Positions 27,248 through 33,200 of a DNA stretch of 64,000 nt are shown here, one piece after another. Each line of letters begins with the position of its first letter. Position 1 is the first letter of the stretch. The translations under genes and the position numbers were made by a program. The DNA is from Chrysomallon squamiferum (Eukaryota; Animalia; Mollusca): positions 14,942,001-15,006,000 of the forward strand of contig CM022671.1 of NCBI GenBank assembly GCA_012295275.1, given 5' to 3'. Under the pieces are notes generated by a model that had not been told where the DNA came from, ran no database searches, and was given only the letters and a program-made list of their open reading frames with translations.

Positions 27248-30200
27248 TTAGCGTCCTGTAAGACAGCAATCAAAATAAGATTTTGTTTTTGTTTTTATAA
27301 GTATTTTCTTTTTCAGATTTATCTGAGTTATATATTTTGATTCATGAGTTTTATTTTAAAAATAAAATATTTACTATATTATCAGACAGTTACTCAAGCA
27401 GATTGATCTCTTTGATAAGTTAACATTCTTTATTTATTTATTTTTTTTATTATCTTTTTCTTTTCCTTTTTTTTTACCTGCTGCTTACAAAAAAAATAAT
27501 ATATATAAACAAATAAAAATAAATAAATAAACTGAAAAAAAATATTGAAACTGCAGAATTATTGAAAAAGGTTATTAAAGTCATCATATCTAGAAATTAA
27601 TATACAAATTTAAATTTACAAAATCAAATATTCTGCATAAAAATAAAACAAAAAATGCATTGTCAACGAATAATTTACTTACAACATTATCCAAATTCAG
27701 TACATAGACTAAAATTGATTTTAAATAAATAAATATGCTGGGAGTTAAATACCTTCTTTTGGTTTTTTCTCTATATTGAGTGTCTCCTGATAAATCAACT
27801 CTTTTAATCTCTCTTTAGGAAGATCATCTAGTTCCATCTCAAATGTGAATGGTTCTTCAGCAACAGGCTAAAATACAACAGTAACTTTTTCAGCAATTCC
27901 ATTTTAGGATTTTATGCTACATAGTTAAAATAGTGAAGTATCAAAACACTGAATATTTCTAACATTAAATACATTAGATAGTCTGAGAGCCTGAGAGAGA
28001 GAGAGAGAGAGAGAGAGAGAGAGAGAGAGAGAGAGAGAGGAGAGAGAGAGAGTGTGTGTGTGAGAGATAGACTGTATTTCCTGTTATTAAATTTATAAGA
28101 AAATATATTATTCAAAATTAATCTTACAACAGTTAATATACCGATTCATTTCTTAACCCATAACATGTGAACTTACCTCATCAGCTGGTTCATAGTACTG
28201 CTCCAGATACGGATGTGCCAAGGAATCTTCAACATTTATTCTTTTGTGTGGATTGAAAGTCAGCATCTTATCAAGAAGATCCAAAGCTATAACAAATCAA
28301 TCAATAAAAATAATATTCATAAGTATTTTTCTTATCAGGCTATTCATTATTCTGGTCTTCAAAGCAGTATTCAAGTAACTGTAAATGAAACAATGTTCTT
28401 AAAACATACCCTTTGGATCAGCATTGGGGAACAGTCGAGTCCATGGAACTTTAGGTTTGAAAGGCAACGAAACGATATAGCCACGAGCCTGAAAAAAAAG
28501 AAAAAGAAATAGATTTATTAATATTCTTTTTCTTTATTATTAAATGTTACTGAAAAACAACTACTGATTTTATCTTGCTTGTTTAATTTTATCATCTTTT
28601 ATTACTAACATATTTAAATAATCTTTTACTATAAAATATCCATTCACAATGATTGTTAAATTTATTTGCATTGTATTTTCTACAACTATTTGTAATATTG
28701 ATTTCTGTCCACATTGAATGATAGAATTTCAACAGTTTAGTCACACATATAATTTTTAAAGATAATCAAGAATGTACATGAATAATTCAAATTGAATAAA
28801 AAACAACTTTTGAATTGTTTAATAATCATTATCTAATCTGTCTCTAAGTAAATGAAAAATTAAAATAAGCAACACGAAATAAATTAAATGGTTTACAATT
28901 CAACATGAAGAATCTTTGTAGAGAACAAATTTATTACTTCATTATTAAAAATAACATACATGCCAATATATATAATACATATAAGCAATCATTAAAATAA
29001 TAACAATAAAAATATTGACTGCCAAACAAATATTAAAATAATTACAGCGACAACATTTAAACAATTCTGAACACAGCCTAAGTAATAAAAGCACTAAAAA
29101 TGAAAAAGTAAGAGATAAAAGACACCCCAAAAATCATTCAAATGTATCTTCTAAATCATGTATTTACTTCTTAAATTTCTTTTAAAAGTTTGCATTCATC
29201 ATTAATTCTAAAACTTGTTAAAAGAAGTGAATCCCAATTTTGGGTTTAATTTTGTTTGATTTCATTTCCAGTGTACCTTTTCATTGAGAATACAGTCAAT
29301 GTCTTCTGTACACGGTGATCCCAAGAGGTCAAGGATACGATTCAACTGATCAAGATCTAGGTTAGTTAAGGAACAGTGACACATGTACCAGGCATGCAGG
29401 AAAGGAATGGATTTATATGACTAACACTACAGAATATCAACTGAAATCTCTGTAATAATCAAATAATATCACTGAGTGAGGAACTTTCTGCATTCTTTTT
29501 TCTTTTCTTAAATCAATGCTTAGGGAGCAAATGCAAACAATTTTTTTTTTTTTTAATTTGACCACAAACTGAAACTTTTATGGAATAAAGCAAATAAGCA
29601 GATTATCAGGAAAAACTGCAAACAGTCTGCTGAAATAATGTAATGCAATGAAAAATGCTTGAAATTTTGATAATACGAAATTTCTTTTTCTAAATATTAA
29701 TATATGATTACCATCAATTAACTTTTCATTTTCCACATGAAAGAAATAAAAGAATTATACTGTCAGCTTTTTCTACATCTACATAATGTGCAAGGTTTCA
29801 GTGATAAACAAATTTAATGTAAAATAAAATTAACAATACAACCTCTATTCATCTTTTATACTAATTTTAATTTTATGTCAGTCAGTTGTACAAGTATTTG
29901 GTGAAATGAAAGAAATTAAAAATCAAGAGATGTGATATAACTTAGATTAAAACAAATAATAATCTATGACTCAAGAATTACTGCTGTGGTAAATCTATAA
30001 ACAAAACAAAAATTCAGTTTTCTTAAGGCACATTAGAAACAAAACATGGCACCAAATGGAAAATAAAAATAAAATAAAATAAAATAAAAAGGAAAGAAAC
30101 CCATTAATAAGTACATGTATATATAAAAAGATCCACCTAAAAATATAAAATCTAGAAATTAAAGGACAGACAACACAAATCATACCACTTTTAAATAAAA

Positions 30201-33200
30201 GCAACCGACCAGTCAAATCACAATAAAATAAATAAATAAATAAAAATAAGCACAAAAACCGTTCCTTCATGTAAAATAACAAAAAACAACTGCAACATAT
30301 TTACCAAATATATGAAAACACATGGCACATTTAAAAAGCTTTTGTTTATGCAACTGACAAAAGTACCAAGGTATGTGAAAAACAAAGACCACAATTAACA
30401 ACCGAGTGCAATACAGACACAACACAAAGGTAACCTTCCCAGCTACAACACGTCAATACACTCACCTTGTCGTTAATAATGCAGCTGAGATCTTCAGAGC
30501 TGGGGGAACCCAAAACACCCAAAATATGATTTAACTGATCAAGATCTTTCAACGTCAAGGAACACATCATTCCAGATTTTAGAGTTACTCCATTATAAAT
30601 TTGATAAAAAAAAAAAAATGTTTACAGTAGTATTGGTATGTAAAATTCAAATGTAAAATAACATTTAATAATATCTCTACATTCTTTCTTTTACACATAA
30701 TTTTAGTTACTGAAGAAAGGTGCCACTGAACATGTCCTCCATATCCCTTAAATTATTTAAAACATGTTGACAGAAATAAAAATATTTCCTGTATGTTTTT
30801 ATGCAGTTATAAACATTTCGGACATAAATACAGATGGAGTTTTAGTGGGGTTTTTTTTTATGCAGATGTTTACCACTGTTCCATATTAAAAATAATAATA
30901 ATAACATGAAAAGGAAAAAAAAGGAAAAATAAAAAAGGGGGGGAAGACCAAAAAAAAAGAAAAGAAATCAATTTATTAATATATTAGTGCTCCAGCAATA
31001 ATGGTTAAAAACACTGATGTTATGTCTTGCCTCATTAAATAACAATTTGGTCAGTTGATGATGATTGTTTTAAGATAGTTAAATATAAGATTAATTATTT
31101 CAAATATAATAAAAACTGTCCACTGGATCAACATACATAATCACATAATGTAGATACACTGTTTCTGCATAACAAGCAAAATCCATGAACACAGATGGAG
31201 TTTTATTTTTTTTTATGAGTGTTGCTCTTCAGTATTTTAATATTTTTACATTTGAAGACAATAAATGATGATTAAATTATATTAAAGAAACAAAGAATTC
31301 AAAATATAACAAGAAATTAAATAAACCAATAAAATGGGTTAATATTAGCTGTATTGAATCTTGTATGTTTATATGTACAAAAAAAAAAAAAAAAATCTGT
31401 AAGCATGTCAGTACTGTATTTCATCAAACATTAGAATCTTTCTATTTCAGGGCGCATTTTCAAAATTTTGAGTATCAATATACTGTTATATTATTATTGT
31501 TAACAGAACTCCAATACCGTATTCTAGGCCTATAATAGCAAACTATTACAAAATGTTTTAAGAAGTGAACCTAACCAGTCATCAAATGCTACAATGTCAT
31601 TGGTACAATTACACCAATTGTTTTGACAACTGAAAACAATACATTTGATCATAACTGGCATTTACCAAGAACAAAAAGAAGGCCAAAATATGAAAACTGG
31701 CCTCTGGCATTACAGGGAAATCCATTTGGAGTAGAATAGTTATAAATATTACTCTAGGTATTTAAGCAAAAACCTCTTAAAATGTGGATAGATACTTGAT
31801 AGCTGTTGTAATACAATATGGATATCTGAAATATTTATGATATTGAACAATTTTTATACAATATATAGATGACCTCTGCATACAAAATAAAACATAGTAA
31901 ATTTAAATAAATTGGAAAAATATAAACTATGAAAAACAAAAATACACGCAGAATGCTTAAATATTATTTATGAACATTAAATTCCTGAAAAATAAAATTA
32001 ATTAAATTTAACTGAAACAGTTTGTCTATTACAATTAAAATATAAATACATTTGTATAGTTTGATTATTGAAACACATGTAAAAAGACAAAATTTACTAA
32101 ATATATTGTTATTTAAGGATACAATGTTTTCCAGGAAAGAGAGGACGATTGGCAAGCATTTCAGCCAGTATACAGCCCACAGACCAAACATCAACTGTAG
32201 AGATGTTAAGGATAACAGTACATTCAATACAAACTTTTATAATTTAGTCAGAATAATAATATATATTAAAACAAACACACACACCCACACACAACCAAGA
32301 CCTATAAATACATATATATTTATACATATACATATACATATACATATACACATACACATACACATACACATACACATACACATCTATATCACATATCAAC
32401 AGATAAACTATACATGATCTGAAAACATTATGACCAATGACTATATAAATGAAAATATTTATTTAAACAGTTATAATATAGTTGATTATTTAATTACACT
32501 CCAACATGCTACCATAATTTTTTTTTTTTTTTGTTGTTCATTTAGTAATTTAGTGTTTTTGCTTTTGTTTTTGTTTCTCTATTTCCTTTCCAGTATTGGT
32601 GGTTATATGAAGATCTTTAATATAACTTCTGTTGTATATGCAAGAACTTTAGAAATGTTTTTAATCTTAACTTATTTTGTCTGTAAAGGATACTTGACTT
32701 GGTATAGCCCTTGGAATTGAGCATTATTTCTGGAGCTCTGTACCATCTTGTTGCGACATATTCTGTCAGGAATCCAGTATGATCATGATCAGGATCAGCA
32801 ACACGGGCCAGACCGAAATCACAAATCTGAAATAACAGTTTGAACACTCTAATGCCTCGTATGCTTTTTAGTCAAGTATTACAATAATTTTTTTTTTTTT
32901 TTTAAAATAACAAATATTTGTAAATGCCTATTAATTTAATACTAAACAAAAATAATACTAAATAAACAGTGCTTAATTATCTAGCAGCAAGAACAAAAAT
33001 ATAATTAATGCATCATGATAACATTTATTTTTCTTTAAAATCTGATCACACCTTAAAAAAAAAAAAAAAAAGGTGTCACAGTATTTAATATTATCAACAG
33101 CAATCTGAAAATAATAAATAAAGCATCAGTCTAACCTTGAGATCACAGGTTGTATTCAGTAAAAGATTACTGGGTTTTAGATCCCGGTGCAGAACATTCG

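What the first reader, a model, noticed from the sequence alone, without database searches (positions are those of the whole stretch)
29277..32122. ERK gene with tandem mutually exclusive exons apparently locked by U12/U2 spliceosome incompatibility
Seen: two 80-nt homologous exons, 7a (30466-30545) and 7b (29277-29356), encode the same alphaG/MAPK-insert segment with identical phases. Both have a U12 branch point (TTCCTTGAC, TTCCTTAAC) about 8 nt upstream of the exon and no pyrimidine tract, and both end in a U2 donor. The shared upstream donor is U12 (GTATCCTT). The intron between them (29357-30465) is therefore a U2-5'/U12-3' hybrid, and skipping both would need a U12-5'/U2-3' join. Including both or neither also shifts the frame. 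Established: U2/U12 incompatibility is the proposed mechanism for JNK exons 6a/6b, and p38alpha (MAPK14, CSBP1/CSBP2) has a mutually exclusive pair at the homologous segment. Vertebrate ERK1/2 have no such pair. Inference: this invertebrate makes two ERK isoforms from one gene through a minor-spliceosome switch, by convergence with p38alpha or by ancient retention. I do not know of a description for ERK but could not search.
Basis: partly seen in the sequence, partly recalled or inferred. Interest (0 to 1): 0.92.

Follow-up and report, generated by a model that had tools for sequence, protein, structure and literature searches.

The report
Two swappable exons in snail ERK
A snail's ERK signalling gene carries two copies of one 80-base exon and makes messages with either copy, likely kept from using both by mismatched major and minor splicing signals, the layout that vertebrate p38-alpha has at the same exon and that likely arose here separately.

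Summary
RNA contigs show both messages, exon 6-7b-8 and 6-7a-8, and no 7a-7b or 6-8 join. Both exons are kept in a second species and as Gigantopelta aegis RefSeq isoforms X2/X3. The layout (one U12 donor, two exons with U12 branch sites and U2 donors) matches human MAPK14 at the homologous 80-nt exon and mirrors JNK. Incompatibility is the likely lock but is not shown: both forbidden joins make premature stops, so NMD would hide them too. Both isoforms use the same two spliceosomes, so it is a lock, not a switch. A conserved TGCATG before 7b suggests RBFOX as chooser. Retention from the ERK/p38 ancestor is rejected. 14 of 14 other animal ERK loci have one copy. Protein records point to further duplications in Pinctada and Dreissena. 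I found no paper on this for ERK (10 searches). The scan noted the same layout before in arthropod p38 and four other genes, not in ERK. Verdict: new member of a known kind.

The parts
37285..37412 (-). ERK coding exon 1 (from ATG)
   Evidence: spliced model gives 365 aa, 96.5-97.0% identical to Gigantopelta aegis MAPK1 isoforms
34162..34288 (-). ERK exon 2
33960..34015 (-). ERK exon 3
33326..33959 (-). intron 3, U12-type by sequence; same donor context (TGT|GTATCC) as the listed minor intron of human MAPK1/MAPK3
33136..33325 (-). ERK exon 4 (catalytic loop)
32694..32826 (-). ERK exon 5 (DFG and TEY activation loop)
32195..32693 (-). intron 5, U12-type by sequence
   Evidence: spliced in RNA contigs (loose end at 32194)
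32123..32194 (-). exon 6, 72 nt, phase 1-1; homologous to the duplicated JNK exon 6a/6b
32115..32122 (-). shared U12 5' splice site GTATCCTT
   Evidence: used in RNA
30554..30562 (-). U12 branch motif of 7a (TTCCTTGAC), 8 nt before the exon
   Evidence: the alignment to organism B ends at its 5' edge
30466..30545 (-). exon 7a, the consensus-like copy (SPS motif)
   Evidence: RNA contig in X9, depth 23.1; G. aegis isoform X3
29357..30465 (-). hybrid intron, 1109 nt: U2 donor GTGAGT, U12 3' end
   Evidence: no join across it listed in 2 RNA runs
29393..29398 (-). TGCATG, RBFOX-type motif 37-42 nt before 7b (role inferred)
   Evidence: also in the loose end beside the 7b branch site in organism B
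29365..29373 (-). U12 branch motif of 7b (TTCCTTAAC), 8 nt before the exon
   Evidence: the alignment to organism B ends at its 5' edge
29277..29356 (-). exon 7b, the diverged copy (SPC in place of SPS)
   Evidence: RNA contigs in X8 (depth 286.7) and X9 (61.8); G. aegis isoform X2
29271..29276 (-). weak U2 donor of 7b (GTACAC)
28410..28488 (-). exon 8, shared U2 acceptor with a 12/12 pyrimidine tract
28177..28286 (-). exon 9
27743..27867 (-). exon 10 to the first in-frame stop; a further terminal exon is possible
   Evidence: G. aegis isoforms end differently

Best explanation
The ERK gene of this snail has two tandem copies of exon 7, makes transcripts with either copy, and is likely held to one copy per message because each forbidden join would pair a major (U2) splice site with a minor (U12) one, with NMD likely removing any leak. 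Shown: one U12 donor after exon 6 is joined to the acceptor of 7a or of 7b, and each exon's U2 donor is joined to exon 8. Inferred: 7a-to-7b needs a U2 donor with a U12 acceptor and 6-to-8 the reverse, so neither spliceosome completes them well. Inferred: the choice is competition between two U12 acceptors, likely tuned by RBFOX binding TGCATG just upstream of the 7b branch site, which would repress 7b and favour 7a in neurons and muscle. Inferred: the pair arose by duplication of an exon that already had a U12 acceptor and a U2 donor, so the copies would have been exclusive from the start, independently of vertebrate p38-alpha. 7b then changed residues of the alphaG/MAPK-insert region, including SPS to SPC, which may alter nuclear import or docking.
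For: RNA: the X8 contig (1131 nt, depth 286.7) runs exon 6-7b-8-9. X9 has two 124-nt contigs, 7b (61.8) and 7a (23.1), each with 0 other letters, a join to exon 8 and a 17-letter loose end equal to the end of exon 6. These joins are absent from DNA runs X1 and X5. No 7a-7b or 6-8 join is listed. Signals; exon 6 ends in ATT, not AG, fitting the extra U12 criterion in PMC10853781. Conservation: organism B DNA contigs align without gaps over 29273-29373 (12 other letters) and 30454-30562 (10), stopping at the 5' edge of each branch motif. Of the listed changes, 4 of 5 codons in each exon are synonymous. TGCATG is in the loose end beside the 7b branch; the background chance of one in a given 45 nt is 1.1%. 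G. aegis X2 and X3 differ at 8 residues in this segment and at none in the flanking stretches compared. Ancestral state: 14 of 14 metagenome ERK loci have one copy; 12 of 14 show the upstream GTATC donor; 8 of 14 (about 5 distinct genes) span exon 6 to 8. Precedent: JNK (PMC1874599), TMEM87A/B, MAPK14.
Against: Both forbidden products carry premature stops, so their absence does not single out incompatibility, and contigs drop rare variants. Incompatibility is not absolute: a small number of U12-motif 3' sites are used by both spliceosomes (PMC10853781), and a U2 donor joins a U12 acceptor in MAPK12 when U12 is mutated (PMC8329584). The 7b acceptor has 8/12 pyrimidines, as many as weak U2 acceptors of this gene. 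The RNA evidence is 2 runs of one study, tissue unknown, and the X9 joins have only 26 letters on the short side. Only 6 of 12 and 5 of 10 differing letters were listed for organism B, so its branch motifs were not read letter by letter; its two exons lie on separate contigs; it may be the same species as the RefSeq proteins. 7b is closer to the Pinctada mRNA segment (5 differences) and Saccostrea (6) than to 7a (9), which fits an older molluscan pair. SPC also occurs in 10 of 137 distinct segments of other ERKs, so an effect on import is speculative.
Confidence: 0.7

Rival explanations
1. NMD alone gives the apparent exclusivity: the U2 spliceosome can use the 7b acceptor as a dual-type site, and messages with both or neither exon are made but destroyed.
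For: 80 is not a multiple of 3; stops at codons 267 and 248 lie more than 55 nt upstream of later junctions. Dual-type 3' sites exist. 377 of 629 human clusters have frame-shifting exons against 5 with U2/U12 incompatibility (PMC5740500).
Against: Dual-type sites are described as rare. Both acceptors are T-poor with full branch motifs, and the alignments to organism B run through them. JNK's 72-nt exons are in frame yet exclusive.
Confidence: 0.2
2. Origin rival: the pair is old within molluscs (before the snail-bivalve split) and other lineages lost or homogenised one copy.
For: 7b shares C248, an acidic 253 and L256 with the Pinctada mRNA form (5 differences, against 9 to 7a). Pinctada also shows two forms of this segment.
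Against: The two Pinctada forms differ by only 3 residues and each is 2 from Saccostrea. The Dreissena unit is two exons, and both its copies share the I244 of Mya and Mercenaria. 7a and G. aegis 7b share the rare S249 (6 of 137 other segments). The RefSeq entries seen for Haliotis, Patella, Pomacea, Octopus, Mytilus, Mya and Mercenaria carry no isoform number; only 15 of 94 members of the largest cluster were listed.
Confidence: 0.25
3. Competing RNA structures (one docker pairing with either of two selectors) enforce or set the choice, as in Dscam-type clusters.
For: A known mechanism for such exons (PMC5740500).
Against: The best shared duplex is no stronger than shuffles: -15.4 against a mean of -15.0 kcal/mol (10 of 20 shuffles as strong) upstream, -13.0 against -13.6 (14 of 20) downstream. 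Inverted repeats are A/T-rich only. Only 150 nt beside each exon were tested as selectors.
Confidence: 0.05
4. 7b is a tolerated duplicate with no distinct function.
For: 7b carries residues rare or absent elsewhere (I252 in 0 of 137 segments, R239 and D242 in 2 each).
Against: 7b is the deeper or only RNA contig and differs from G. aegis 7b at 2 of 26 residues, with mostly synonymous listed changes in organism B.
Confidence: 0.1

Closest known systems
Vertebrate p38-alpha (MAPK14) mutually exclusive 80-nt exons (CSBP1/CSBP2 naming recalled)
   Same: Homologous exon, 80 nt, phase 1-0 (Hatje 2017 dataset EV4). Olthof 2019 lists a minor intron with donor ACC|GTATCCTTT whose downstream exon is skipped while an exon inside it is used, in 10 of 11 mouse and 8 of 8 human tissues. 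That this is the intron before the pair is my inference from the donor context.
   Different: Different MAPK subfamily and phylum. The snail exons are ERK-like (9 differences from each other, 15-16 from the p38-alpha exon), so they come from a separate duplication. The passages I saw do not describe the MAPK14 hybrid intron as such.
Vertebrate JNK (MAPK8/9/10) exons 6a/6b
   Same: Exclusive duplicated exons around a U2/U12 hybrid intron (PMC1874599). The JNK exon (72 nt, phase 1-1) is the homolog of exon 6 here, so it borders the same U12 intron position.
   Different: Mirror image: the exon upstream of the U12 intron is duplicated, the hybrid is U12-5'/U2-3', the exons are in frame, and Nova and a pyrimidine tract set the choice.
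TMEM87A/B exons 11/11a
   Same: Exclusive exons around a minor intron, tissue-regulated.
   Different: Unrelated gene; JNK-type polarity; 72-nt in-frame exons.
Vertebrate ERK1/2 splice forms (ERK1b, ERK1c)
   Same: Same kinase; best solved-structure matches are ERK2.
   Different: These are intron-7 retention forms; the review passages name no exclusive exon pair and one ERK gene in invertebrates (PMC4897767). Olthof's intron table has one minor intron for each of MAPK1 and MAPK3, matching intron 3 here.

Membership tests
ERK1/2-type MAP kinase | TEY activation motif and closest similarity to ERK1/2 | tested here: met
   TEY in exon 5; model 96.5-97.0% identical to G. aegis MAPK1; that protein's top PDB matches are ERK2, E 1.6e-203
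U12-type intron (6-7a and 6-7b) | 5' site RTATCCTT, without AG at the exon end | tested here: met
   ATT|GTATCCTTA; criterion from PMC10853781
U12-type intron (6-7a and 6-7b) | TTCCTTRAC branch motif close to the 3' end | tested here: met
   8 nt before each exon
U12-type intron (6-7a and 6-7b) | no polypyrimidine tract | tested here: inconclusive
   7-8 of 12 pyrimidines, T-poor; overlaps weak U2 acceptors of the gene
U12-type intron (6-7a and 6-7b) | excised by U11/U12/U4atac/U6atac | not testable with these tools
   needs knockdown or lariat mapping
Tandem-duplicated mutually exclusive exons | homologous neighbours of equal length and phase | tested here: met
   80 nt, phase 1-0, 67.5% nucleotide identity
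Tandem-duplicated mutually exclusive exons | each exon spliced alone into mRNA | tested here: met
   X8 and X9 contigs; G. aegis X2/X3
Tandem-duplicated mutually exclusive exons | never both, never neither | tested here: inconclusive
   no such join in 2 RNA runs, but contigs drop rare variants
U2/U12-incompatibility pairs (JNK, TMEM87, MAPK14) | hybrid intron between the two exons | tested here: met
   GTGAGT donor with U12 branch acceptor, 29357-30465; MAPK14 polarity, mirror of JNK
U2/U12-incompatibility pairs (JNK, TMEM87, MAPK14) | exclusivity holds without NMD | not testable with these tools
   both forbidden products have premature stops
Ortholog of the p38-alpha exon pair (ancient retention) | each copy closer to one p38-alpha exon than to its sister | tested here: not met
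   9 differences between 7a and 7b, 15-16 to the one p38-alpha exon compared; single copies in 14 of 14 other ERK loci
RBFOX-regulated exon | conserved TGCATG near the exon and dependence on RBFOX | tested here: inconclusive
   motif in two species; dependence not testable; the upstream-represses rule is recalled knowledge

The most novel reading that the evidence does not exclude
The ancient U12 intron after the FPGxH motif of MAP kinases is a hotspot for new isoforms. Any duplicate of an exon bordering it is exclusive from birth, and this has happened separately in vertebrate JNK, vertebrate and arthropod p38, and at least three times in mollusc ERK (this snail group, Pinctada, Dreissena). 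In the snail it gives a single-gene ERK two forms, one without the SPS nuclear-import phosphosite, chosen by RBFOX acting on U12 branch-site competition. The in-frame two-exon cassette of Dreissena would be a natural NMD-free test of the lock.
Probability: 0.3. Interest if true: 0.72.

Novelty: new member of a known kind. Interest (0 to 1): 0.5.

Why it matters
ERK is described as one gene in invertebrates, and the splice forms reported for it are poorly conserved. This is a conserved, expressed isoform pair in the region that holds the SPS nuclear-import signal. U2/U12-locked pairs are rare (5 of 629 human clusters), and the role of the lock is mostly assumed. Repeated duplication beside one U12 intron across JNK, p38 and ERK makes a testable case that splice-site class steers where new isoforms arise, and the Dreissena cassette offers a way to separate incompatibility from NMD. 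The mechanism itself is known, and nothing here shows a functional difference between the two proteins.

Tried and rejected
No whole genome is held for the window, so other copies or an RBFOX gene could not be sought. The Pinctada hit to 7b was first read as a 7b ortholog. It keeps H239 and G242 and is closer to oyster and mussel segments, so it is not counted as one. Coral R239/E242 segments suggested a cnidarian pair, but all 7 members of that cluster carry the same type, so this was rejected. Isoform pairs of Physella, Anneissia and Oratosquilla do not differ at this exon. A screen of 263 of 273 fetched proteins for pairs differing only here gave 2 pairs, G. aegis and Pinctada. Docker/selector test negative. 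Rfam: 0 matches in the window. One search used three wrong exon boundaries and its protein lengths are void; one search corrects them, and the exon 7 comparisons stand. A last exon matching the G. aegis C-terminus was not found. No structure or complex was predicted. Literature: 10 searches gave no paper on exclusive exons in any ERK gene; the library lacks most subscription journals. The Hatje 2017 appendix that lists the 5 incompatibility cases was too large to read, so I cannot say whether MAPK14 is among them.
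Full report
Observation. The window holds a ten-exon ERK gene on the minus strand (37412-27743). 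Spliced with either 7a or 7b it gives 365 residues, 97.0% identical to Gigantopelta aegis MAPK1 isoform X3 and 96.5% to X2 respectively, and 82-89% to the other molluscs compared. The animal is therefore a gastropod close to Gigantopelta (inference). Exons 7a (30545-30466) and 7b (29356-29277) are 80 nt, phase 1-0, 67.5% identical, with 16 of 26 differences at third positions and 9 of 26 residues changed. The donor before them is ATT|GTATCCTT. Each has TTCCTTRAC ending 8 nt before the exon. Their own donors are AAG|GTGAGT and AAG|GTACAC, and exon 8 has a 12/12 pyrimidine tract. The branch motif stands at 4 of 4 acceptors paired with U12 donors and 0 of 6 others, whereas pyrimidine content does not separate the classes. 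Both exons together stop at codon 267, neither at codon 248.

Expression. Eleven runs were listed, two on record as RNA, both from one study. In X8 one contig of depth 286.7 runs exon 6-7b-8-9. In X9 two 124-nt contigs carry 7b (61.8) and 7a (23.1), each joined to exon 8 (26 letters on the short side, no mismatches) and ending in the last 17 letters of exon 6. The DNA-type runs X1 and X5 show none of these joins. No 7a-7b or 6-8 join is listed. Contig depth is a poor measure of expression and rare variants are dropped. This shows that both forms exist and suggests, without measuring it, that 7b is the commoner one in these samples.

Conservation. G. aegis RefSeq X2 has the 7b type and X3 the 7a type, so the pair already sits, uncommented, in an automatic annotation. 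DNA contigs of organism B (X10 and X11, one sample) align without gaps over 29273-29373 and 30454-30562, on separate contigs, and each alignment stops at the 5' edge of the branch motif. Six of 12 and 5 of 10 differing letters were listed. They touch 5 codons per exon, 4 synonymously, and the two replacements are those of the G. aegis proteins, so organism B and the RefSeq records count as one second species at most. The loose end beside the 7b branch holds TGCATG 15 nt upstream of the branch motif, against 19 nt in the window (29398-29393). That is the only minus-strand copy between 26237 and 40947, and the background chance within a given 45 nt is 1.1%.

Ancestral state and recurrence. A scan of metagenome contigs for a U12 branch followed by the start of exon 7 gave 14 loci. 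All 14 have one copy of the exon, 12 show a GTATC donor after exon 6, and 8 (about 5 distinct genes) span exons 6 to 8. Their segments resemble annelid and coral ERKs (inference). The pattern selects for U12, so it shows that the layout is old, not how common it is. Among proteins, Dreissena has two tandem copies of exon 7 plus 8 in one model and only the first in RefSeq X2, and two Pinctada records differ at 3 residues within this segment. Neither was seen as DNA. The copies mostly group by lineage, which favours separate duplications, but 7b is closer to Pinctada (5) than to 7a (9), so an old molluscan pair keeps about 25%. Descent from the ERK/p38 ancestor is rejected: both copies are 15-16 residues from the p38-alpha exon.

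Mechanism. Shown: the two splice paths and the signals. Inferred from the established incompatibility of the two spliceosomes: 7a-to-7b and 6-to-8 are mixed joins and should fail. NMD would remove the same products, so steady-state RNA cannot separate the two. Incompatibility is also leaky in places (PMC8329584; PMC10853781). Both isoforms use U12 upstream and U2 downstream, so the lock does not choose. The chooser is likely RBFOX at the TGCATG, by the recalled rule that upstream binding represses an exon; this predicts 7a in nerve and muscle. A docker/selector structure was not found above shuffles. An exon with a U12 acceptor and a U2 donor should be exclusive the moment it is duplicated, which would explain the recurrence (inference).

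Protein. By the ERK2 alignment (human numbering inferred from a four-residue offset) the exon covers L234-K259. 7a is close to the animal consensus. 7b has R239, D242, L243, C248, I252 and L256, found in 2, 2, 1, 10, 0 and 6 of 137 distinct other segments. S246-P-S248 is the SPS motif whose phosphorylation, mainly by CK2, promotes importin-7 binding (PMC6429060); 7b reads S-P-C. SPC also occurs in crab, shrimp and mite ERK records, where no second form was seen, so a changed import is a hypothesis only.

Comparison. Human MAPK14 has an 80-nt phase 1-0 pair at this segment, and JNK a 72-nt phase 1-1 pair at the homolog of exon 6 (Hatje 2017 EV4). Olthof 2019 lists a MAPK14 minor intron with an inner exon used and the downstream exon skipped. 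JNK's hybrid is the mirror image. The system is therefore known, and it is the host gene that is new. Ten searches found no description for ERK. Papers were seen as term-matched passages, none whole: PMC1874599, PMC8883539, PMC8329584, PMC11347168, PMC12637451, PMC5740500 (plus supplement rows; appendix not readable), PMC9741552, PMC4465641, PMC6717393 (plus supplement rows), PMC6429060, PMC6865273, PMC3342872, PMC8586503, PMC4897767, PMC10853781. Letunic 2002 was not read. The scan's own notes report the same layout in arthropod p38 and four other genes; I did not check them.

Verdict. Real, expressed and conserved in a second species. New member of a known kind; interest 0.5. The lock by incompatibility is likely (0.7) but unproven, and repeated origin beside one U12 intron is the part most worth testing.

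Noticed in passing
P0003 (Dreissena polymorpha DPMN_007746) and P0194 (XP_052217603.1): The GenBank model holds two tandem, diverged copies of exon 7 plus exon 8 (53 aa each, in frame); RefSeq isoform X2 uses only the first. Likely a two-exon exclusive cassette behind the same intron; DNA not seen.
   Followed up: partly
P0002 and P0195 (Pinctada): Two records differ at 3 residues inside the exon-7 segment and are otherwise the same apart from gene-model errors at intron 3 and exon 6 (chance about 4e-4). Likely another exon-7 pair; alleles or paralogs not excluded.
   Followed up: partly
window 32123-32194 (-): Exon 6 has U12-type introns on both sides; the gene has three U12 donors (33959, 32693, 32122).
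   Followed up: partly
window 27743-27760 and 27483 (-): A possible donor near the end of exon 10 and a CAGCAG tandem acceptor at 27483; G. aegis isoforms differ by one residue at the C-terminus, so a further small exon may exist.
   Followed up: no
L001 and L006; L003 and L012: [quoted passage not shown]
   Followed up: no
window 7082-12513: Tandem duplication of about 2.7 kb at 96% identity; could be real or an assembly artefact.
   Followed up: no
window about 42600-53950 (-) and 21456-23847 (+): Neighbouring genes: coronin-like exons upstream of ERK and a PAGR1/PA1-like gene facing it downstream (names recalled from the translations, not searched).
   Followed up: no
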